From a virus: DNA of 64,000 nucleotides. Shown piece by piece: positions 12,306 to 49,219 of the stretch. The translations under genes were made by a program, and so were the position numbers. The stretch spans positions 1 through 64,000 of IMG/VR virus record IMGVR_UViG_3300050821_003619. The stretch is one strand, 5' to 3'. Below the pieces are notes generated by a model. That model was not told where the DNA came from. It saw only the letters and a list, made by a program, of their open reading frames with translations, and did no database searches. Position 1 is the first letter of the stretch, and each line of letters begins with the position of its first letter.

Positions 12306-12570
12306 GCTTCCTCTTTTTATTTCGTAATGCTTGAATCTCGTTAGGGTCCAATGCGGTATCGCCTGCCTCACTAGCAAAGTAGTAAGGGTTCAACAAAGGG
12401 TCAATTATCTCTTCCATTTGACAGTTGCCTGTCGAGCAGAATTCAAGACCACCAGACAGCGCTCGATGAGCCGACTTTTTGGTCAAGGCCCACGGCGCAT
12501 TTAGCGCGTTCGGACAACAAAAAAGGGTAGACCCTGTTGGGCCTACCCTCGTGTGTATAACTAACAATTT

Positions 12571-12645
12571 TGGTGGACAATGACGGCTACGCTCCGTCCT
12601 CCCTCGGGTGCAAGCCGAGAGTTTTCCTGAATAAACTAATCGCCC
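12571..12645 (-). tRNA. tRNA-Ala(UGC)
   Basis: Cloverleaf, loop CUUGCAC, G3:U70, CCA; atypical T-loop AGCGUAG. Confidence 0.85.
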
Positions 12646-12647
12646 AC

Positions 12648-13742
12648 TTAAAATGGTTCTGTGTAACGAAAGAATTTTATTAATCGTTCAAAGAAATTTT
12701 CTTTCTTACCATAAAGGAAATGAAACCATTTTTCAATACTTCTTTTATTGTGCTTAATCAAGGCTTTCGTGCCTTGTATCGCTGCATCGTCTCTTAATAA
12801 CAAGTTGATGCCTACTTCAGATATTTCTACCGCGTCATCGGCATCGGCTTTCCATGAATCTGGAGCCCAATATATCGCAGATGATACCACAGAAGGTACA
12901 CCGGCCAACACTCCGTCTGCCGTTACCATGTTGAAGGATTCCGTATAAGAAACCTGAATCAACAAATCCATGCTGCTTACCAGATGAATGAATTGATCCC
13001 ATGGCTGCCAGTTATGACGTACAAGGGTGAACCCCGGTATATTGTCGGTCATCTGGCCTATAGCTGGAGAAACTCTACCTTGGTCTCCTTCTCCACCGGA
13101 AGACATATGAAACTCTACAGGTACTTGAAGTTCTTTTTGTATAAGAACTGCAGCCGCTGTAGCAGTCATAAAGTTCTTCTCGGGACGTACTGCACCAAAT
13201 GCGCCGATCTTTATAGGACTAACACCGTCCCACGGCTCTTTTTGGCGCTGATATGTCAGCGGATAAAGATTAGGGAGAAGAACCGCTTCTCTCTCGTATG
13301 CTTTTTCAAACCACTCTACAAATCTTTCAGAGTTGCCACCAACTTTTAAGTTAGGATATTTCTCCGAAAGTTCTTGGTACTTTCTCAATAACTCTACACC
13401 TTCTGGGTCAGCTTGCAGAAACCCAACGTTTGAGTGAGAAAGTATAACAAATTCTATGTCTTTAAAATTTTTAACTAGAGACTTTAAATCATGAAGGCTA
13501 AGCCAAGGAGCAGATATAACTACGTGCGTGAGAGGCTTATCGTGGGTTTCGTTGTATTTATCAACGGCATGCACAATATCAACGTTGTGCCTTACAGGGA
13601 ACACGGTGACATCCACTCCGTATTCTCTTAGTACTTGCGCTGTGGTAAACCCTGCTACATTCAGTCCAACACAGCTAGTTCTTATCCATGCAGCAAAATC
13701 TTTAAATACCAGCGCTAATCTTACGTCTTCTGCCTTCTTCAT
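12648..13742 (-). CDS. Glycosyltransferase, GT-B fold (GT4-like)
   Basis: GAVRPEKN and SYTESFNMVTADG..GVPSV motifs. Confidence 0.75.
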   Translation of the reverse strand: MKKAEDVRLALVFKDFAAWIRTSCVGLNVAGFTTAQVLREYGVDVTVFPVRHNVDIVHAVDKYNETHDKPLTHVVISAPWLSLHDLKSLVKNFKDIEFVILSHSNVGFLQADPEGVELLRKYQELSEKYPNLKVGGNSERFVEWFEKAYEREAVLLPNLYPLTYQRQKEPWDGVSPIKIGAFGAVRPEKNFMTATAAAVLIQKELQVPVEFHMSSGGEGDQGRVSPAIGQMTDNIPGFTLVRHNWQPWDQFIHLVSSMDLLIQVSYTESFNMVTADGVLAGVPSVVSSAIYWAPDSWKADADDAVEISEVGINLLLRDDAAIQGTKALIKHNKRSIEKWFHFLYGKKENFFERLIKFFRYTEPF

Positions 13743-13857
13743 CTAATCCTTCTGGGGAAAGAGGGATTGCCGGGGTTCCTTTACGACGCCCAATCCCGGC
13801 GCGGACGTTTACAAATTGGTTGCGGCCTCCGGTAACGCTCCTAGGAGACCGCAAAAT

Positions 13858-13934
13858 TGGGTGCGGGAGCGAGAATCGAACTCGTCCATGTGATGCTTAT
13901 GAGACATCCGTAGCCACCAGACTACGTTCCCGCA
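13858..13934 (-). tRNA. tRNA-Met/Ile2(CAU)
   Basis: Loop CUCAUAA, T-loop UUCGAUU, CCA. Confidence 0.85.
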
Positions 13935-14187
13935 ATTTATACTCAATTATCCTGTGACAGTTAGCACACAATAGTATGCACTTCTTTAATTCCTCTAAAA
14001 TGCTTTCTCTACTATGTCTAAAAATTCCTGCACTAAGATTAAATCTTTTTGTGTCTGGGTTTACATGGTGAAAATCCATAACATACGATGGGAATTTATT
14101 GCCGCATCTGTTACATGGTTTATTTTTATATGTATCCAGCCACTCTCTTCGTTTCTTTATTGCCTTCTTAACTGTGCTATACGTGCT
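13897..14187 (-). CDS. HNH endonuclease; 3' end overlaps tRNA(CAU)
   Basis: PCNRCG...MDFHH...KCILLCANCHR. Confidence 0.8.
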   Translation of the reverse strand, partial: STYSTVKKAIKKRREWLDTYKNKPCNRCGNKFPSYVMDFHHVNPDTKRFNLSAGIFRHSRESILEELKKCILLCANCHRIIEYKLRERSLVATDVS

Positions 14188-14266
14188 CATCTTTTCTCTT
14201 TTCCGCAGAAAGATGAACAAGTGCGTCCGCAACCACCTGAGTTTTATCGTCTCAGGAACGTCAAAA

Positions 14267-14342
14267 TGGGGTGAGCAGTAGGATTCGAACCTACATAAGC
14301 CAATTTAGAAGATTGGTGCACGGTCCCTTATGCCATGCTCAC
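14267..14342 (-). tRNA. tRNA-Arg(UCU)
   Basis: Loop CUUCUAA, CCA. Confidence 0.9.
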
Positions 14343-14349
14343 GTAAAAT

Positions 14350-14427
14350 TGGTCGGCGCGGGAGGATTTGAACCTCCATATACTCGCGTCCAAGGCGAGG
14401 GGGTTAGCCAGATTACCCAACACACCG
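14350..14427 (-). tRNA. tRNA-Pro(UGG)
   Basis: Loop CUUGGAC, CCA. Confidence 0.9.
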
Positions 14428-14436
14428 AAAATTGTC

Positions 14437-14669
14437 TCATTAGGAACAGGCGAAAACAGAGCGGGAATCAACGTATTGACTACGCTGCTGTAGTTTCATC
14501 CGTGTATTCACCCTAAAGTATCGCCCGGAGGTGATTACTGTGAGTGACGGCTACAGGCTTCCCTAGCATTTTTAGACGTGCCTAGCGTTCCATACGGAGT
14601 TGACTGCCACCGAAGTGTCAGTGGTTTGCGTCATCAAGTATGAAGTATCTGTTTTCTACGCCATAATGA
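14437..14669 (-). ncRNA. Y-RNA-like RNA 1 (shared stem plus ~175-nt structured insert)
   Basis: 5' UGGCGUAGAAAACAGAUACUUC ... CUGUUUUCGCCUGUUCC 3'; near Ro60 gene. Confidence 0.7.
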
Positions 14670-14677
14670 AAATTTAT

Positions 14678-14812
14678 TAGATGCAGGAACAAGCGGTCAC
14701 AGAGATTTTAGCGCTCTGCCACTAAGCTACGGAGACCGAAGTCTCCGGTGGGAGTCGAACCCACGCCTCTTCATTAGCAGTGAAGTAACTGTGTCCTACG
14801 CCATGCAATCTA
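14678..14812 (-). ncRNA. yrlA: Y RNA 2, YrlA-type (shared stem plus permuted tRNA-like T/acceptor/D domain)
   Basis: Insert GUGGG-UUCGACU-CCCAC, CGGAGAC-UUCG-GUCUCCG, GCUU-AGUGGCA-GAGC; close to the TROVE gene. Confidence 0.85.
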
Positions 14813-14823
14813 AACTTAAAATT

Positions 14824-14895
14824 TGGTCGCCCCGCTGAGAGCAACCTCAGCCACCCTCCCCAATGGGAGTCGTGCCGCACTTACACCACAGAGCG
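14824..14895 (-). ncRNA. CCA-ended tRNA-like RNA with non-canonical anticodon and T loops
   Basis: Acceptor CGCUCUG/CGGGGCG-ACCA and D stem present; anticodon arm CUCCC-AUUG-GGGAG; T loop GUUGCU. Confidence 0.6.
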
Positions 14896-14903
14896 AACTC
14901 ATC

Positions 14904-14990
14904 GTGGGAACAAACGATTACAGAGATTATAAGCTCGTATTAGGAGCTTCTCTTGTTAATGGTAAGAAGTAACTGTAATCTACGCCACAC
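14904..14990 (-). ncRNA. Y-RNA-like RNA 3 (shared stem plus short hairpin insert)
   Basis: UGGCGUAGAUUACAGUUACUUC ... CUGUAAUCGUUUGUUCC; starts ~12 nt after the TROVE stop. Confidence 0.75.
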
Positions 14991-15002
14991 AAACTTTATA
15001 AC

Positions 15003-16319
15003 TTATTCGTTTTCGTAAGCCTGAATCCAATTTACTACAGATTCCGACCATCCGTCAAGGTGGCTCCATTTTCCGTATCCGATACCGTTCTGATAAGAAG
15101 CCACATTGATCACGTATCCTACACCGTTAGGTGTAGATACTGTCTGATGCGATTGCTCATCAGTAACGATGATGATACGGTCGTAACCACGGGCATCAGC
15201 TACTCTTTTCGCTGATTCCGTGTTGGTTGACCCGTGGCTTGTAGCGTTCTTAATTGCATCTCGAAGCGCAAAACCTCTACGGGCTGGAACCAAAACGGGA
15301 GAATTTGAAAACGAAAGAACTTCTACGTCTTCACAAATCTCACGAAGGAGAATAGCCAGAGCACAAGCCGCATCACTGCGGTCGATCTCACTCTTTGCCG
15401 AAACTGGGGTACCGTACATGCTACCAGAGTTATCTACAAGAAGAATCGTCTTGCCCTTTAGCTTAGGCATCTTCTCCAATGCCTTGAACATAGCCTGCTC
15501 TAATTCAGGCTCTAGGTCTGGGGCATACTTCGCCGCAGAAATGAATCTGAATGGCAGCACTCTGCTCACATCAATCTTTCTCAAGGCGCTCTTGATCAGC
15601 GTCTTGCTTACCCCAGACTGCTCCATATTGCGAAGGTTACGCAATAGAGCCAACGCTCCAAGCTTCTCTTCTTCGATCAGTCGCGTAAAGGTTTCACCCT
15701 TGTCAGCGCCTCCTGAGAGAGCAACTTCCCACGTATCTGGCGTCTTCAATTCGTTATTGACAACCTTCTTGAAAAGCTTTTCCTGTTTCTTATTCTCAGG
15801 CTTAGCGTGAGAAAGGAAAAGAACATCGCGCAGCTTTACTGCACCGTCACGGTTGTACTTAGCAAGTGCATACTCTTCGAACTTACCGAAGGCTCGCGCC
15901 AATCCACGCTTACTCTGCGCTGATAAAGGCTCCTTGCCGTCTTTCCAATAGATTGCCACGTACTCAGTCAACTCATCTGGGCGCTGAATTACGCGTTCCA
16001 GAAGTTCCGCTACGTACTGACGCTCAGTCACTTTTGGGTGACGGGCCAGTTCACGCGCTAACAATAGAGGTACGTGACGTAGCTTCATTTCTTCTCTCGC
16101 CTTAACAGCGATGTCAGCTACGGTTTTGCCGGGAAGCGAGTGCACCAGCGTCTTAATACGCTCTGCGATTGCCTGCCCGTCTTCATAAAATTGGTCTTCC
16201 CAAAGCATGCACGCCATTACTGAGCGCTCTAATTCTTTTGCTTTGGTGATTTTCTTTGCAACTGCACCTTCATGTGTGAAGATAGGTGCAGACTTTACTG
16301 CTCTGTTTAGGGTAGCCAT
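15003..16319 (-). CDS. rsr: Ro60/Rsr TROVE-domain RNA-binding protein with vWA domain
   Basis: QRPDEL, LAKYNR, LRDVLFLSH, TWEVALS, ALLRNLRN, RVLPFRF, MIDAS DNSGSM, IVTDEQ. Confidence 0.95.
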   Translation of the reverse strand: MATLNRAVKSAPIFTHEGAVAKKITKAKELERSVMACMLWEDQFYEDGQAIAERIKTLVHSLPGKTVADIAVKAREEMKLRHVPLLLARELARHPKVTERQYVAELLERVIQRPDELTEYVAIYWKDGKEPLSAQSKRGLARAFGKFEEYALAKYNRDGAVKLRDVLFLSHAKPENKKQEKLFKKVVNNELKTPDTWEVALSGGADKGETFTRLIEEEKLGALALLRNLRNMEQSGVSKTLIKSALRKIDVSRVLPFRFISAAKYAPDLEPELEQAMFKALEKMPKLKGKTILLVDNSGSMYGTPVSAKSEIDRSDAACALAILLREICEDVEVLSFSNSPVLVPARRGFALRDAIKNATSHGSTNTESAKRVADARGYDRIIIVTDEQSHQTVSTPNGVGYVINVASYQNGIGYGKWSHLDGWSESVVNWIQAYENE

Positions 16320-16363
16320 AAACACTCCTGAGTCAAATTTATACTTCTACTGCCGAACAAAAT

Positions 16364-16439
16364 TGGCATGAGATGCAGGATTCGAACCCGCACGATTCGT
16401 TTTGGAGACGAACATGCTGCCGTTAAACATCAATCTCAT
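16364..16439 (-). tRNA. tRNA-Trp(CCA)
   Basis: Loop CUCCAAA. Confidence 0.9.
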
Positions 16440-16442
16440 ATA

Positions 16443-16518
16443 TGGAGCGAAGCACGAGATTTGCACTCGTTCCGTTTGGTTGGAAGCCAAACATGCTGCT
16501 GTTAAACACCAGCCTCGC
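16443..16518 (-). tRNA. tRNA-Gly(UCC)
   Basis: Loop CUUCCAA. Confidence 0.9.
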
Positions 16519-16519
16519 G

Positions 16520-16593
16520 TGGAGCGAACTGAGAGAATCGCACTCTCGCCTAGTCGTTGGCAACGACCGGTTCTACTACTAAACTAAGCTCGC
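16520..16593 (-). tRNA. tRNA-Gly(GCC)
   Basis: Loop UUGCCAA. Confidence 0.88.
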
Positions 16594-16664
16594 TCAAGTA
16601 GCCGAAGGCGACACCCAACGACATCTGCGGGGAATTACAACGCTGAATCAGCTACTAAATAAAA

Positions 16665-16741
16665 TGGCGACCTGTATGGGATTCGAACCCATGATCTGTC
16701 CCGTGACAGGGGACTGGGGACAGCCACTCCCCTAACAAGCC
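16665..16741 (-). tRNA. tRNA-Asp(GUC)
   Basis: Loop CUGUCAC. Confidence 0.9.
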
Positions 16742-16742
16742 G

Positions 16743-16836
16743 TGGACGAGAGTGCGAGATTCGAACTCGCGGCCCCTTTCATCAAGGAAGCGGCGGTTTT
16801 CAAGACCGTTGCATTAATCCGCTCTGCCAACTCTCG
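16743..16836 (-). tRNA. tRNA-Ser(UGA)
   Basis: Loop CUUGAAA, long variable arm. Confidence 0.9.
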
Positions 16837-16845
16837 GTTTCAAAC

Positions 16846-16938
16846 TGGATGAGAGTAAGGGATTCGAACCCTTGGACCCCATTGCTGGGCATCACATGTT
16901 TAGCAAACATGCTCGATAAACCACTCTGACAACTCTCA
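16846..16938 (-). tRNA. tRNA-Ser(GCU)
   Basis: Loop UUGCUAA, long variable arm. Confidence 0.9.
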
Positions 16939-17037
16939 ATAAATTTTGTGAGGCTGAGAGGTAACGAATGCTCTCAATTAAGTTTTAACGTTCATGCTTA
17001 CGCAATTTACGGCGCTACCGTACAACACCTCTAAACT

Positions 17038-17113
17038 TGGTCACTCATGCGGAAGTCGAATCCGCGTCACTTCCTTGAGAGGGAAGTATCCTAAGCCACT
17101 AGACGAATAAGTG
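17038..17113 (-). tRNA. tRNA-Glu(CUC)
   Basis: Loop CUCUCAA. Confidence 0.88.
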
Positions 17114-17169
17114 ATAGATGTGGATTTCGCAGTGCTGCCCACATCGGCCTGCACTCGGCCTTTGCAAAA

Positions 17170-17244
17170 TGGAGGTCCCACAGGGAATTGCACCCTGATC
17201 TAAAAGTTCGTAGCTTTTCATCCTATCTGTTGAACGATAGAACC
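17170..17244 (-). tRNA. tRNA-Arg(ACG)
   Basis: Loop CUACGAA. Confidence 0.88.
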
Positions 17245-17391
17245 TCATAAAATCGGTGCCGCAGAAACTTATTGCTTTTCTTTGTACTTCAGCATTGAGC
17301 AACATCGGTTACCCTGCGGCTAAAATTTGGGTGGGTTTTTTACGGTCTTCTCAGAATCCAATACCCACCCCATCTTCAAGATTCATAAATT

Positions 17392-17467
17392 TGGTGTCTC
17401 GTGCGGGATTCAAACCCGCGTCAAAAGCTTGAAAGGCTTCCATCCTAGATCACTAGACGAACAAGAC
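17392..17467 (-). tRNA. tRNA-Glu(UUC)
   Basis: Loop CUUUCAA. Confidence 0.88.
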
Positions 17468-17468
17468 A

Positions 17469-17543
17469 TGGCTCCTACCGCTGGATTCGAACCAGCACCC
17501 TACGCATTAACAGTGCGCTATCCTGCCGTTAGACCAGATAGGA
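17469..17543 (-). tRNA. tRNA-Asn(GUU)
   Basis: Loop CUGUUAA. Confidence 0.88.
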
Positions 17544-17558
17544 ACATTACAATTAAAT

Positions 17559-17646
17559 TGGTGCACGCTGATGGATTCGAACCACCAATAGCTCTTAGAG
17601 CCGGGAGGGTTACAGCCTCCTGCAATAGCCGTTATGCGAAACGTGC
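17559..17646 (-). tRNA. tRNA-Tyr(GUA)
   Basis: Loop CUGUAAC, long variable arm. Confidence 0.88.
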
Positions 17647-17653
17647 ATTTAAA

Positions 17654-17728
17654 TGGTGACCACTGGAGCGCTCGCATCTCCGTCCACGGGGTTTCAATCC
17701 GTTGCTATGCTATCTCAGCTAAGAGGCC
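17654..17728 (-). tRNA. tRNA-Phe(GAA), atypical T arm
   Basis: Loop UUGAAAC; enlarged T loop. Confidence 0.7.
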
Positions 17729-17742
17729 ATAAAATTTATTCA

Positions 17743-17801
17743 CGGGAACAAACGTGTACGGTGTATTTTCATCCAAAGAAGTAACCGTACACAACACCAC
17801 G
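17743..17801 (-). ncRNA. Y-RNA-like RNA 4 (minimal: shared stem with ~15-nt loop)
   Basis: UGGUGUUGUGUACGGUUACUUC ... CCGUACACGUUUGUUCC with compensatory changes. Confidence 0.65.
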
Positions 17802-17807
17802 CAAATA

Positions 17808-17881
17808 TGGAAGCCCCGCAAGGATTTGCACCTTGGTTAGAAAGGTCAAAGCTTTCCGTCCTGCTCTTGAACGACAGGGCT
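17808..17881 (-). tRNA. tRNA-Gln(UUG)
   Basis: Loop CUUUGAC. Confidence 0.88.
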
Positions 17882-17970
17882 ATAAAAATTTGAGGCAGGA
17901 TTTACATACGTTGCAGTTCCATTATCCAACGTAAGACCTAAATACCGAATGGATGCGGTTGCCTCAAAAC

Positions 17971-18044
17971 TGGTAGGCAAGGAGTGAGTTGCACACTCAT
18001 TTCACTCTAATCAGGAGTGCTGTCTGCTGTTGACGTACTCGCCT
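17971..18044 (-). tRNA. tRNA-Ile(GAU)
   Basis: Loop CUGAUUA (U37 unusual). Confidence 0.8.
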
Positions 18045-18045
18045 A

Positions 18046-18131
18046 TGGTCCGAAAGAAGAGAGTCGAACTCTTATGCATTTACTGCGGCAGTTTTTGAGA
18101 CTGCTGTGTCTGCCTGTTCCACCACTCTCGG
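18046..18131 (-). tRNA. tRNA-Leu(CAA)
   Basis: Loop CUCAAAA, variable arm. Confidence 0.88.
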
Positions 18132-18140
18132 ATTTAAAAT

Positions 18141-18225
18141 TGGTCTCGAAGATGGGACTCGCACCCATACGCCTGACGGCAGAAGTTTTTAAGACTTCCG
18201 TGTCTGCTAATTCCACCACGACGAG
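18141..18225 (-). tRNA. tRNA-Leu(UAA)
   Basis: Loop CUUAAAA, variable arm. Confidence 0.88.
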
Positions 18226-18227
18226 AT

Positions 18228-18303
18228 TGGCTGGCCGTCAAGGACTTGCACCTCGACCATTCGGGTCAGAGCCGAACGTTCTGCTATTAAAAACTAACAG
18301 CCA
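18228..18303 (-). tRNA. tRNA-Gln(CUG)
   Basis: Loop CUCUGAC. Confidence 0.88.
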
Positions 18304-18312
18304 ATAAAAATT

Positions 18313-18389
18313 TGGAGTACGTTGCAGGATTCGAACCTGCGCCTAGACGGGTTGCAGCCGTCCGCGTTTAGCCTCTTCGCCAAACGTAC
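18313..18389 (-). tRNA. tRNA-Cys(GCA)
   Basis: Loop CUGCAAC. Confidence 0.9.
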
Positions 18390-18390
18390 A

Positions 18391-18466
18391 TGGAGGGCAC
18401 GCGAGAAATCGAATCTCTTTCACGCGGGGTCACAACCCGGTGGCTACACCAGTTGCTACGCGCCCT
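18391..18466 (-). tRNA. tRNA-His(GUG)
   Basis: Loop UUGUGAC. Confidence 0.82.
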
Positions 18467-18471
18467 AAAAT

Positions 18472-18550
18472 TGGTACACCGGGTTGGATTCGCACCAACG
18501 GTAATCCTTCTTTGTAAGAGAAGGGGCTTCGTCTCCTTGCCCACCAGTGT
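18472..18550 (-). tRNA. tRNA-Val(UAC)
   Basis: Loop CUUACAA. Confidence 0.85.
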
Positions 18551-18602
18551 ATGGTGCAATCCTATAGATTGCACAACCGTATTTCTACGGGGAGTCGTAA
18601 AT

Positions 18603-18680
18603 TGGAGCCTAAGACTGGGAATCGCACCCAGTACAACCTCTTTACGAGAGAGGTATTCTAGCATCTTAAATTACTCAGGC
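18603..18680 (-). tRNA. tRNA-Thr(CGU)
   Basis: Loop CUCGUAA. Confidence 0.88.
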
Positions 18681-18690
18681 ATAAAACTCT

Positions 18691-18791
18691 ATTTAGGGAA
18701 CAAGCGAATACAGGAAAGGCACCAGCCCTTGCTACGGAATCGAACCGCTCGCTCTATATGCAAGAAGTACCTGTTTTCTACGCCACTAAAT
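18691..18791 (-). ncRNA. Y-RNA-like RNA 5 (shared stem plus T-arm-containing insert)
   Basis: UGGCGUAGAAAACAGGUACUUC ... GCGG-UUCGAUU-CCGU ... CUGUAUUCGCUUGUUCC. Confidence 0.72.
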
Positions 18792-18795
18792 AAAC

Positions 18796-18870
18796 TGGAG
18801 CCACTGGTAGGAGTTAAACCCACACACGCCAAGGTACAAGCTTGGTGCACTGTCATTATGCTACAGTGGC
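18796..18870 (-). tRNA. tRNA-Thr(UGU)
   Basis: Loop CUUGUAC. Confidence 0.85.
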
Positions 18871-18871
18871 A

Positions 18872-18945
18872 TGGAGCCCAAGGATGGAATCAAACCATCG
18901 TTGCTCCCTTACCAAGGGAGAGTTCTATCACTGAACTACAAAGGC
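18872..18945 (-). tRNA. tRNA-Thr(GGU)
   Basis: Loop UUGGUAA. Confidence 0.88.
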
Positions 18946-18955
18946 AATAAAAATA

Positions 18956-19273
18956 ATACTAACTCTGTAAGCAGGATTCTGTCAATGGAATATTTTCCAC
19001 CGGACAATCATTCGTCTTAGCTTTCAACCCGATGGCTCCCCGAGCAGGATCACTGCCATCCTATTTGAAATTGCTGCCCCTAGAGATTGCCCGTTTCACT
19101 CCCACTCAAGGGATTCGTCACTGTTGCTCTTATCGTAGCCTCGCGGCTCCCGCAGCTTCCACGGTAGGGTGCTCTTTGCAGTCCTGACTTTCCTCACCTT
19201 AAGATGAAGCGCTCCGCAAGGTATTAACCACACAGTGCTTGATCCGATAAGGCGCGATTGTCTGAGTTAGTAT
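18956..19273 (-). ncRNA. rnpB: RNase P RNA
   Basis: Conserved GAGGAAAGUCAGGAC and ACAGAAUCCUGCUUAC (P4), GUGAAACGGGCAAUC, AAUGAUUGU; P1 AUACUAACUC/GAGUUAGUAU. Confidence 0.92.
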
Positions 19274-19373
19274 AAAATTGGTATGGAAGATACTCTAGGA
19301 GTAGTCACCTTTGACTTTCAGCCTGCTCGCTACATCCACGTCACTTTTGCAGGATATCGGAACATCTTAAAAT

Positions 19374-19460
19374 TGGTGCGCCTAGAGGGACTTGCACCCC
19401 CACGGCTGTTAACCACTGGAGTCTAAATCCAGCGCGGCTGCTAAATTACGCCATAGACGC
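19374..19460 (-). tRNA. tRNA-Leu(UAG)
   Basis: Loop UUUAGAC, variable arm. Confidence 0.88.
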
Positions 19461-19730
19461 ATTTAAAATTTTAGAGCACAGGCGAGGCTGAGGGACTAGG
19501 CCAGTCAGCCTCGGGTGCTTTTCTTCGAAAGAGTGCGTCTTACACAATATGTTGCGCCAGCTCGAAATACGAAGATAAACGTTGGGCGTATACCTTGTTG
19601 CGATACCATCTACTTCTAGACTTAGCCCAATCTGAATCCCGGCCCTCAACCAAAAAGGAGTAAAGGGAGAGCCGGGAGGACGCGAATGCGTCTACAATGT
19701 GATGTACGCCTTATTTGAGGGTACAGTATT

Positions 19731-19759
19731 ACTATACCATAACTAAGTGAATTTGTCAA
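19731..19759 (-). promoter_or_regulatory. Sigma70-type promoter of the RNA island
   Basis: TTGACA-N17-TATAGT with extended TG. Confidence 0.75.
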
Positions 19760-19892
19760 GTAAAAAATGCAGAGTCAACGCAAAAAATAAAGTTTAAATA
19801 TGGAATGACATTTACGTATCATACTGATTTAAAACGAGTTATATCAAAAATCTAAAACCGTATCTTATAGTAAATACACGGGTTATATCAAC

Positions 19893-19921
19893 TTGACTTT
19901 CGAGGTAAGTCGTGCGATACT
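19893..19921 (+). promoter_or_regulatory. Divergent sigma70-type promoter of the DNA metabolism operon
   Basis: TTGACT-N17-GATACT with extended TG in an AT-rich spacer. Confidence 0.55.
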
Positions 19922-20007
19922 AGAATCGTTTCCCCCCGGTAATACTATATACTACATATGGTTCTATAAGAATCAATCACTTACTTGTTAAAGTATAGGG
20001 GCAGTAA

Positions 20008-20313
20008 GTGGTTATTGTCAATAGGTATTTGCTAAGCATTGAAAATAAACAACTTATGAAGCTATCTACACGCACTCCAGATTCAATTTCCAAGAAAAGA
20101 CAGGAGCTTAGAAGGCAAATAGCCCTCTGGCAAGATCGAATAGAAGCCATAAAGCTTTCTCTTTCAATAACTTCAGAAGAGAAGGCAGAAAAACTGAAAC
20201 AAGCCTACACGGAACTCAAAGCTTTAAATGCTTCAATGAACGAGACTTTTGTCGGTCGGCACCGATCCATCAACTTCAGCAAGACCAGAAAGCTCTACCC
20301 CGGCGTTTGGTAA
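20008..20313 (+). CDS. Hypothetical protein
   Basis: ORF track; helical. Confidence 0.45.
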   Translation: MVIVNRYLLSIENKQLMKLSTRTPDSISKKRQELRRQIALWQDRIEAIKLSLSITSEEKAEKLKQAYTELKALNASMNETFVGRHRSINFSKTRKLYPGVW

Positions 20314-37736: not shown

Positions 37737-37844
37737 GCGCAGGATGTGGTGTCCTGCGTACGTCACAGCGAATAAGTATGCTTGCCGACCTAGGCGGCGA
37801 TACCGAGCAGAAGAAGTAACTGTGACGCATGGAGGACACCAATG
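37737..37844 (+). promoter_or_regulatory. SD-switch element D
   Basis: GCGCAGGA-UGUGGUG-UCCUGCGU; CGUCACAG/CUGUGACG; GGAGGACACCA-AUG. Confidence 0.62.
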
Positions 37845-48859: not shown

Positions 48860-49219
48860 TACGCACGTATGAGGTAATCGCAAAGCCTATCGGACACGGG
48901 TTCGACTCCCGTCGCCTCCACCAAGCTACTCACGATGAATACCGGCTGACCCCAGCGTCTAGCGCGGAATCACGGCTAGGCCCGAGACGAATGCATCGTT
49001 ATCGGGAAAGTCGAGGATAATTCTCGTCTGGGTGAGTAGCTTAATGGGGGCGTCACGGCTTCGACGGTGGGAACTGAGGGATTTACTGACGTGCCGTTAT
49101 CGTACGCCGTTCGTTATACGGAGTGCAAAAACACAAATGCTAAGACTAACAAGTCTCGCAAGGCCTATGGCATGTTCTTCGGTGGAAACACTGTTGGACA
49201 GCTTTCTGTAGCTGCCTAA
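48860..49219 (+). ncRNA. ssrA: Circularly permuted two-piece tmRNA
   Basis: Acceptor piece ...GGACACGGGUUCGACUCCCGUCGCCUCCACCA (ends 48923) precedes coding piece GGGGGCG (49046); G3:U70; tag AKTNKSRKAYGMFFGGNTVGQLSVAA* at 49139-49219. Confidence 0.88.

What the first reader, a model, noticed from the sequence alone, without database searches (positions are those of the whole stretch)
14437..18791. Phage Ro60 with five modular Y-like RNAs: one conserved docking stem, five different payloads
Seen: five minus-strand elements (14437-14669, 14678-14812, 14904-14990, 17743-17801, 18691-18791) share 5'-UGG(C/U)GU(A/U)G-N3-AC(A/G)G-N-UACUUC-[insert]-C(U/C)GU-N3-CG(C/U)(U/C)UGUUCC-3'. The stem shows compensatory changes (AAA/UUU, AUU/AAU, UGU/ACA) and a closing outer helix. 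The inserts differ completely: ~175-nt multi-helix, a permuted T-acceptor-D tRNA mimic, a short hairpin, a ~15-nt loop, and a lone T arm. Three copies lie directly downstream of the TROVE gene. Established: Ro60/Rsr binds Y RNA stems; YrlA RNAs carry a tRNA-like domain; Y RNAs can tether Rsr to effectors such as PNPase. Inference: the phage runs one Ro60 protein with interchangeable RNA adapters that recruit or decoy different host factors. I know of no described family of five differently loaded copies in one phage.
Basis: partly seen in the sequence, partly recalled or inferred. Interest (0 to 1): 0.92.

Follow-up and report, generated by a model that had tools for sequence, protein, structure and literature searches.

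The report
Five phage Y RNAs around Ro60
This 109-kb phage encodes a Ro60 RNA-binding protein and five small RNAs that share one conserved stem ("handle") but carry different inner parts. They belong to a large, mostly unannotated family of Ro60 partner RNAs (Y RNAs) found in many phages and bacteria, so this is a good example of a known kind and not a unique system.

Summary
The 22-nt 5' motif occurs exactly five times in the complete 109,250-bp genome, with no mismatches (0.02 expected). Each copy has the matching 3' motif and a covarying outer helix. A TROVE/Ro60 gene (15003-16319, minus strand) lies among them, inside a tRNA operon.

The handle is a real, conserved RNA structure. In 20 elements from other viral contigs, 95% of cells pair and 9 of 17 pairs show double changes. 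A model built without four of the window's copies finds them at 54-63 bits.

The exact motif occurs in 109 viral contigs. In 86 of them a Ro60 gene lies within the fetched stretch, always on the same strand (101 elements to 0), at a median distance of 259 nt. It also occurs beside Ro60 genes in bacterial genomes, mainly Acidobacteriaceae.

These are therefore Y RNAs of the YrlA/YrlB lineage. E2 is a tRNA mimic and E4 a short hairpin. Four of the five payload types recur elsewhere. Only E1's 182-nt payload has no relative.

Five copies is not exceptional. Other loci carry 4-10, and Caulobacter phage CcrColossus carries six, unannotated. Different payloads recruiting different factors remains an inference. 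This scan has noted similar Ro60 RNA arrays on other DNA many times.

The parts
14437..14669 (-). E1: Y RNA with the shared handle and a 182-nt multi-helix payload that has no relative
   Evidence: Exact 5' and 3' motifs. Perfect 8-bp inner stem and 6-bp outer helix. Fold z-score -2.2. No Rfam match. No payload homolog in 327 fetched loci. Model R1 misses it, presumably because the insert is too long.
14678..14812 (-). E2: YrlA-type Y RNA. Handle, then anticodon-like hairpin, T arm, closed 7-bp acceptor-like hairpin, U8-A9, D arm
   Evidence: R1 54.2 bits. Rfam YrlA 30.4 bits, below the gathering score of 69; Rfam tRNA 30.2 bits. Fold. About 60 similar ~80-nt payloads in other viral loci.
14899..14995 (-). 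E3: Y RNA with handle and a 42-nt payload of two hairpins, starting about 11 nt after the Ro60 stop codon
   Evidence: R1 62.8 bits, E 1e-17, and not in the model's training set. Fold.
17737..17807 (-). E4: short YrlB-like Y RNA, handle plus a 16-nt loop, directly abutting the 3' end of tRNA-Gln
   Evidence: R1 74.6 bits, but it is in the training set. The short class is the commonest class in other viral loci.
18689..18793 (-). E5: Y RNA with handle, a lone T-arm-like hairpin (GGUUCGAUUCC) and a small hairpin, lying between two tRNAs
   Evidence: R1 56.8 bits. Fold. T-arm-only payloads recur in 31 viral elements.
15003..16319 (-). Ro60/TROVE gene, 438 aa, TROVE plus vWA domain with DNSGS MIDAS motif. 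ATG at 16319, AGGAG at 16329-16325
   Evidence: Pfam TROVE 61.8 bits, E 9e-17. Full-length match to Thermus phage phiLo Ro60 structures 9KOP/9L5Y, E 4e-24. Translation.
12571..19460 (-). tRNA operon that carries the Ro60 gene and all five Y RNAs: 26 tRNAs called by ARAGORN
18952..19273 (-). Phage RNase P RNA (class A) at the head of the same operon
   Evidence: Rfam RF00010, 147.6 bits.
19731..20021 (-). Two near-consensus sigma-70-like promoters upstream of the array (TTGACA-N17-TATAGT with TG; TTGACA-N18-TATACT)
   Evidence: Consensus scan only.
12523..12550 (-). Terminator-like hairpin (12 bp plus T run) just after the last tRNA
   Evidence: Consensus scan only.

Best explanation
The five elements are Y RNAs, the noncoding partner RNAs of the phage's own Ro60 protein. 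They belong to a handle-defined family related to bacterial YrlA/YrlB.

Architecture (shown): the 5' and 3' ends of each RNA pair to form a handle. From the outside in it has a variable outer helix, a bulged U, a GG/CC pair and an internal loop. That loop holds invariant GGCGUAG-type letters on the 5' side and CGYUUGUU on the 3' side. An 8-bp inner stem follows, then an invariant UACUUC that starts the first payload hairpin.

Linkage to Ro60 (shown by comparative genomics): the handle co-occurs with Ro60 genes, on the same strand. That Ro60 docks on it is inferred.

Biogenesis (inferred): the RNAs are made as part of one long tRNA operon transcript, from promoters near 19.7-20.0 kb to a terminator at 12.5 kb. 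E4, E5 and E1 lie 0-9 nt from tRNAs, so ordinary tRNA end-processing would release them as discrete RNAs.

Function (inferred from Deinococcus, Salmonella and Thermus phage phiLo): the handle holds Ro60 while the payload gates its cavity or tethers it to another factor such as host PNPase. The different payloads would give one protein several specificities. The payloads are a full tRNA mimic, a T arm alone, small hairpins and one large orphan domain.

My odds: Y RNAs bound by Ro60, about 0.85; the different payloads engage different partners, about 0.4.
For: - Exactly five perfect copies of both motifs, against 0.02 expected.
- Handle structure on 20 independent elements: 95.3% of cells paired; 9 of 17 pairs with changes on both sides; covariation score 0.629 against 0.211 shuffled (0 of 500 shuffles reach it) and at most 0.17 when slid.
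- Model R1, built from short elements, finds E2, E3 and E5, which were not in its training set, at 54-63 bits.
- The exact 5' motif occurs in 109 viral contigs. In 86 a Ro60 homolog (29-68% identity) lies within the fetched stretch. All 101 elements in those stretches are on the Ro60 strand, at a median of 259 nt. About 0.2% of cultured-phage records have such a gene (94 of 50,697).
- Of five complete genomes with a full handle but no Ro60 in the fetched stretch, four have TROVE elsewhere in the genome.
- The same motif lies next to Ro60 (43-69% identity) in 51 bacterial loci.
- The handle's 5' strand resembles the GNCGAAN0-1G motif that Chen et al. link to Rsr binding.
- The nearest solved relative of the protein, phiLo Ro60, binds two phage Y-like RNAs and forms a complex with host PNPase.
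- Co-transcription of Y RNAs with a tRNA is known in D. radiodurans.
- Arrays also occur in loci without any tRNA (L057, L069, L040, L034).
Against: - No expression or binding data exist for this phage.
- The handle motif differs from GNCGAAG at one position (GGCGUAG) and in E4 at three (GGUGUUG).
- Rfam YrlA scores only 30.4 bits on E2 (gathering score 69) and nothing on the others. It is also below threshold in 14 related loci, including CcrColossus.
- E1's payload has no homolog, so its fold rests on energy alone.
- The genome has no RtcB, Rnl2-type ligase or CCA-adding enzyme that would point to a pathway.
- The promoters and terminator are consensus matches only.
- One complete phage (L053/G009) has a YrlA-type element but no detectable TROVE gene.
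Confidence: 0.8

Rival explanations
1. Only one or two copies (the YrlA-like E2 and the short E4) are working Y RNAs. E1, E3 and E5 are decaying duplicates, or duplicates with junk inserted.
For: The payloads of E1, E3 and E5 have no detectable homologs in 327 loci. The folds of E3 and E5 are not clearly better than shuffles (z -1.9 and -0.5).
Against: All five keep every invariant handle position with 0 mismatches. All five keep paired inner and outer helices through different sequences, which decaying copies would lose. T-arm-only and other mid-length payloads recur in many phages and bacteria.
Confidence: 0.1
2. The phage RNAs act mainly on the host's Ro60 (Rsr), as decoys or competitors, rather than as adapters for the phage protein.
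For: Acidobacteriaceae chromosomes carry the identical 5' handle motif next to Ro60 genes 55-60% identical to the phage's. The phage's DNA polymerase is nearest to those of Acidobacteriota phages. One complete phage carries a handle RNA without a TROVE gene.
Against: The phage keeps its own intact Ro60 gene in the middle of the RNAs. Same-strand adjacency to a phage Ro60 is the rule (101 to 0).
Confidence: 0.07
3. The shared stem is a processing or stability element of phage tRNA operons, unrelated to Ro60.
For: All five lie in a tRNA operon with its own RNase P RNA. A/U-rich AAUUUU spacers flank many units.
Against: The handle tracks Ro60 genes, not tRNAs. Arrays of 4-6 occur next to Ro60 in loci with no tRNA at all. 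In the whole genome the motif occurs only at these five places, although there are 26 tRNAs.
Confidence: 0.03

Closest known systems
Bacterial Rsr (Ro60) with YrlA and YrlB Y RNAs (Salmonella, Mycobacterium smegmatis; Chen et al. 2014, PMC4201824; Rfam RF02553)
   Same: The RNAs are encoded within about 2 kb of the Ro60 gene on the same strand. There are at least two RNAs per genome: one with a T arm, closed acceptor-like stem and D arm (E2), and one a simple hairpin (E4). A GNCGAA-like motif lies near the 5' end. The 3' strand shares CUUGU with the RF02553 consensus.
   Different: The handle sequence is different enough that RF02553 gives 30 bits against a gathering score of 69. E2 closes a separate anticodon-like hairpin with the invariant UACUUC, instead of running the anticodon-like stem into the handle. 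There are five RNAs rather than two, including a 182-nt payload. There is no rtcBA partner operon.
Thermus phage phiLo Ro60 with Yrl1 and Yrl2 (PMC12135203; PDB 9KOP, 9L5Y)
   Same: A phage-encoded Ro60, the nearest solved relative (E 4e-24, full length), with phage-encoded Y-like RNAs next to the gene. Binding and a ternary complex with host PNPase were shown by gel shift for phiLo.
   Different: phiLo has two hairpin-type RNAs with a CGAA motif. Here there are five RNAs with a different handle, set in a tRNA operon, and one is a full tRNA mimic.
Deinococcus radiodurans Yrn1/Yrn2 with Rsr and PNPase
   Same: Y RNAs made as a polycistronic precursor with a tRNA. The Y RNA tethers Ro60 to an exoribonuclease.
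   Different: No detectable sequence relation. PNPase tethering is not shown here.
Metazoan Y RNAs (four in humans)
   Same: One conserved Ro60-binding stem formed by the RNA ends, with variable loops that bind other proteins, and several paralogs per genome.
   Different: Pol III genes, GGUCCGA motif, no tRNA-like module; no Rfam Y_RNA match here.
Phage Bas63 gp130, a Ro60-like protein upstream of its tRNA genes (bioRxiv 10.1101/2024.10.10.617714)
   Same: A Ro60-like gene beside a phage tRNA array. The authors suggest that some annotated tRNAs are Y RNAs.
   Different: gp130 was identified by structure only and shown genetically to counter the ppl defence system. No such test exists here, and relatedness was not examined.

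Membership tests
Y RNA (Ro60 partner RNA, general definition) | Encoded close to a Ro60/TROVE gene, on the same strand | tested here: met
   All five lie within 2.5 kb of the gene on its strand. In other viral loci the ratio is 101 to 0 same strand, median distance 259 nt.
Y RNA (Ro60 partner RNA, general definition) | 5' and 3' ends pair into a conserved stem with bulge or internal loop | tested here: met
   Covariation test on 20 family members: 95.3% paired, 9 pairs with double changes, 0 of 500 shuffles reach the score. Folds of all five.
Y RNA (Ro60 partner RNA, general definition) | Conserved 5'-strand motif contacted by Ro60 (GGUCCGA in animals, GNCGAAN0-1G in bacteria) | tested here: inconclusive
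   GGCGUAG in four copies (6 of 7 positions) and GGUGUUG in E4 (4 of 7). These letters are invariant or nearly so across the family.
Y RNA (Ro60 partner RNA, general definition) | Physically bound and stabilised by Ro60 | not testable with these tools
   Needs gel shift or immunoprecipitation.
YrlA (Rfam RF02553) | Score at or above the curated gathering score (69 bits) | tested here: not met
   E2 scores 30.4 bits; the other four give no match. No hit at gathering score in 14 related loci, including CcrColossus.
YrlA (Rfam RF02553) | tRNA-like module: T arm, closed acceptor-like stem, D arm | tested here: met
   E2 only: GUGGG-UUCGACU-CCCAC, CGGAGAC-UUCG-GUCUCCG, UA, GCUU-AGUGGCA-GAGC.
Handle family defined here (model R1) | Significant match to a covariance model built from elements of other phages | tested here: met
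   E3 62.8, E5 56.8 and E2 54.2 bits, none in the training set; E4 74.6 bits, in the training set. E1 is matched by the two exact motifs only.
Ro60/TROVE protein | TROVE domain followed by a vWA domain with MIDAS motif | tested here: met
   PF05731 61.8 bits against a cut-off of 23. The vWA models score just below their cut-offs (24.8 and 23.0 bits). DNSGS is present. Full-length match to 9KOP.

The most novel reading that the evidence does not exclude
Ro60 in phages, and in bacteria such as Acidobacteriaceae, works with a library of 5-10 handle-tagged RNAs whose exchangeable payloads direct one ring protein to different targets. Payloads include a whole tRNA mimic, a T arm alone, hairpins and large orphan domains such as E1's 182 nt. 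In phages this would serve host takeover or counter-defence, as hinted by Bas63 gp130 countering the ppl system. I found no paper describing such many-RNA arrays: published cases have two to four Y RNAs per genome.
Probability: 0.25. Interest if true: 0.75.

Novelty: new variant of a known kind. Interest (0 to 1): 0.5.

Why it matters
Ro60 and Y RNAs are known from animals, a few bacteria and one studied phage, but what the variable parts of Y RNAs do is still largely open.

This locus, and the roughly 100 related viral and 50 bacterial loci found with its handle, show three things:
- One sequence-conserved handle defines a much larger family than Rfam's YrlA model captures.
- Genomes commonly carry several members with different payloads.
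- In this phage they sit in the same operon as the tRNAs and an RNase P RNA.

That gives a compact natural set of five RNAs and one protein for testing whether payloads set partner specificity. It also gives a simple motif for annotating these RNAs. In CcrColossus they are unannotated, and the stretch carries only one tRNA-Gln annotation.

Tried and rejected
- Rfam at gathering score, and at E up to 10, over 14200-19500 and 14430-15000: only a weak YrlA hit on E2 and nothing for E1, E3, E4 or E5.
- Megablast of 14300-19300 against cultured phages: no match.
- BLAST and nhmmer of the E1, E3 and E5 payloads against 122 viral, 120 bacterial and 80 metagenome loci: no homologs, so no covariation test of the payload folds was possible.
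- The metagenome scan for close Ro60 relatives gave a best identity of 71% on a 2.4-kb contig and at most 62% otherwise, so no close relative of this phage was found.
- Model R1 misses E1, presumably because the insert is too long.
- My relaxed motif scan undercounts against R1 (L072: 0 against 10), so its copy-number distribution is a lower bound.
- A sixth R1 hit at 37762-37826 (E 0.25) has only the inner stem plus UACUUC and no outer handle. I rejected it as a family member.
- Searches for RtcB, Rnl2-type ligase and CCA-adding enzyme in the genome were negative.
- The supplement of Chen et al. 2014 and the 2020 Annual Review (PMC10870794) are not held. I therefore could not check how many Y RNAs per phage they list.
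- I did not run a protein fold or a complex prediction. The tools cannot model protein-RNA binding.
Full report
**Setting.** The window is the first 64 kb of a complete 109,250-bp virus record with direct terminal repeats. On the minus strand, 12.5-19.5 kb is one dense RNA-gene array.
- ARAGORN tRNAs there.
- Rfam finds a class A RNase P RNA at 18952-19273, 147.6 bits.
- An ORF at 15003-16319 is a TROVE/Ro60 protein with a vWA domain: PF05731 61.8 bits and a DNSGS MIDAS motif.
- Its nearest solved relative is the Ro60 of Thermus phage phiLo (9KOP/9L5Y, E 4e-24, full length).
- Near-consensus promoters lie at 19.73-20.02 kb and a strong terminator-like hairpin at 12523-12550. This fits a single ~7-kb transcription unit, but these are pattern matches only.
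- The DNA polymerase is closest (41-43%) to those of Tunturiibacter (Acidobacteriota) phages.

**The observation.**
Shuffles give 0.02.
- The 3' consensus matches exactly in the same five elements.
- Each element has the same layout, from the outside in:
  - an outer helix of 2-6 bp whose sequence differs in every copy;
  - a bulged U;
  - GG paired to CC;
  - an internal loop with GGCGUAG-type letters on the 5' side and CGYUUGUU on the 3' side;
  - an 8-bp inner stem whose three variable pairs differ between copies;
  - UACUUC, then the payload.
- The payloads are 182, 79, 42, 16 and 50 nt. The description is right apart from E3, which has two hairpins.

**Is the handle a real structure?** I aligned E4 with 19 short-payload elements from 18 other viral contigs and counted pairs for the proposed structure.
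- 95.3% of cells pair, and 9 of 17 pairs change on both sides.
- The covariation score is 0.629 against 0.211 in shuffles (0 of 500 reach it) and at most 0.17 when partners are slid.
- The unpaired letters are invariant or nearly so, which fits recognition by a protein.
- A covariance model from this alignment (R1) finds E3, E5 and E2, none used to build it, at 62.8, 56.8 and 54.2 bits.
- R1 misses E1, presumably because the insert is too long. E1 rests on its two exact motifs and perfect stems.

**Is it tied to Ro60?**
- The exact 22-nt 5' motif occurs in 109 contigs of the viral collection. In 86 of them a Ro60 homolog (29-68% identical) lies within the fetched stretch.
- All 101 motif copies in those stretches are on the Ro60 strand. 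88 are upstream and 13 downstream, at a median distance of 259 nt.
- For comparison, 94 of 50,697 cultured-phage records have such a gene.
- Eleven motif loci have neither a 3' partner nor Ro60. At least two of these are not chance:
  - L011 is a 1.4-kb stretch of CcrPW, whose Ro60 gene was found. It carries four R1 hits.
  - L052 carries three R1 hits.
  - The rest are what chance would give for a 32-bit pattern.
- Twelve loci have a full handle but no Ro60 in the stretch. Five of these come from complete genomes. Four of the five have a TROVE gene elsewhere in the genome; one (L053/G009) does not.
- In bacterial genomes the motif scan stopped at 120 loci. By my estimate, about 277 chance matches are expected in 596 Gb read on both strands. 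51 of the 120 carry a Ro60 gene 43-69% identical to the phage's, mostly in Acidobacteriaceae.
- Arrays also occur beside Ro60 where there are no tRNAs at all.

**What they are.** The handle's 5' strand resembles the GNCGAAN0-1G motif that Chen et al. (PMC4201824) place at the Rsr-binding site. Its 3' strand shares CUUGU with the Rfam YrlA consensus.
- E2's payload is a complete, circularly permuted tRNA:
  - an anticodon-like hairpin with a 7-nt loop;
  - a T arm;
  - a 7-bp acceptor-like stem closed by UUCG;
  - U8-A9;
  - a D arm.
- About 60 near-identical designs occur in other viral loci.
- E4 is the short class, the commonest one (82 of 199 non-redundant viral elements).
- E5 is the T-arm-only class (31 of 199).
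- E3 and E1 fall in the mixed remainder (25 of 199).
- E1's 182-nt payload has no relative in any fetched locus and matches no Rfam family.
- RF02553 itself scores E2 at only 30.4 bits and misses related loci, including CcrColossus, at its gathering score. This is a YrlA-like lineage that the curated model does not cover.

**How unusual are five copies?** Not very.
- R1 finds 272 matches at E up to 0.001 in 122 viral loci.
- L072 comes from a complete 111.8-kb genome that also mixes these RNAs with tRNAs. It has 10.
- L069 has 6, CcrColossus 6 and L122 5. About a dozen loci have 4.
- In the CcrColossus GenBank record that stretch carries only a tRNA-Gln and terminators.
- A Terriglobales bacterial contig has five differently loaded elements in a row.
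- Published accounts that I could read describe at least two Y RNAs per bacterium and two in phage phiLo. Four literature searches found no paper on larger arrays.
- Earlier reports of this scan have described the same kind of Ro60 RNA array on other phage genomes many times.

**Mechanism.**
- Shown here: a conserved, covarying handle, strict linkage to Ro60, and recurrent payload classes.
- Inferred from position: E4, E5 and E1 lie 0-9 nt from tRNAs, so tRNA end-processing would release them. The phage's own RNase P RNA heads the operon.
- Inferred from other systems: Ro60 docks on the handle while the payload gates the ring or tethers it to a factor such as PNPase. The evidence for tethering comes from D. 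radiodurans, Salmonella and phiLo.
- The genome lacks RtcB, an Rnl2-type ligase and a CCA-adding enzyme, so any enzymatic partner is probably a host protein.
- A counter-defence role is possible. Bas63's Ro60-like gp130 counters the ppl system. Nothing here tests that.

**Verdict.** The claim of uniqueness is not supported, and the adapter function is unproven. This is a clear, well-organised member of a widespread and under-annotated family. One component, E1's payload, has no known relative.

Noticed in passing
window 18952-19273 (-): A phage-encoded class A RNase P RNA (147.6 bits) heads the tRNA/Y RNA operon. Its P3 and P12 regions look reduced in the Rfam alignment.
   Followed up: no
window 48863-49219 (+): A circularly permuted two-piece tmRNA (Rfam RF04321, 92.8 bits). 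ARAGORN predicts a 26-residue tag.
   Followed up: no
window 14813-14898 (-), between E3 and E2; L025:262-345: A structured RNA ending in ...GCGACCA, with a long terminal stem. Neither ARAGORN nor Rfam calls it a tRNA. It is 87% identical over 84 nt in another viral contig, with one compensatory pair, and there too it sits next to Y RNAs.
   Followed up: partly
window 13743-13857, 16594-16664, 16939-17037, 17114-17169, 17245-17391, 17882-17970, 18551-18605, 19274-19373 (-): Eight further spacers of 55-147 nt in the tRNA array that fold into hairpins and match no Rfam family. Most units in the array are separated by AAUUUU-like runs.
   Followed up: no
window 17657-17728 and 18606-18680 (-): Two tRNA-like genes found by Rfam (36.8 and 42.4 bits) but not by ARAGORN. 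The first has an acceptor mismatch and an odd 9-nt T loop.
   Followed up: no
window 13897-14232 (-): An HNH endonuclease ORF (PHROG 3106, E 5e-27) sits inside the RNA array and overlaps the tRNA-Met call at 13858-13934.
   Followed up: no
window 37762-37826 (-): A partial look-alike of the handle's inner stem plus UACUUC (GUCACAGUUACUUC...CUGUGAC; R1 E 0.25), without the outer handle.
   Followed up: partly
L057 / L128 (Caulobacter phage CcrColossus, NC_019406.1, about 108.5-109.7 kb): Six handle-bearing elements lie upstream of gp139 (RNA-binding protein/TROVE). The record annotates only a tRNA-Gln and terminators in that stretch.
   Followed up: partly
L053 (complete 71.6-kb viral record, G009): A YrlA-type element with a full handle in a complete phage genome where no TROVE gene was detected. 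It may rely on the host's Ro60.
   Followed up: partly
L187 (Terriglobales MAG contig, minus strand, about 830-1590 in + coordinates): Five to six handle elements in a row with different payloads on a 400-kb bacterial contig. No Ro60 was detected within the 8-kb stretch fetched.
   Followed up: no
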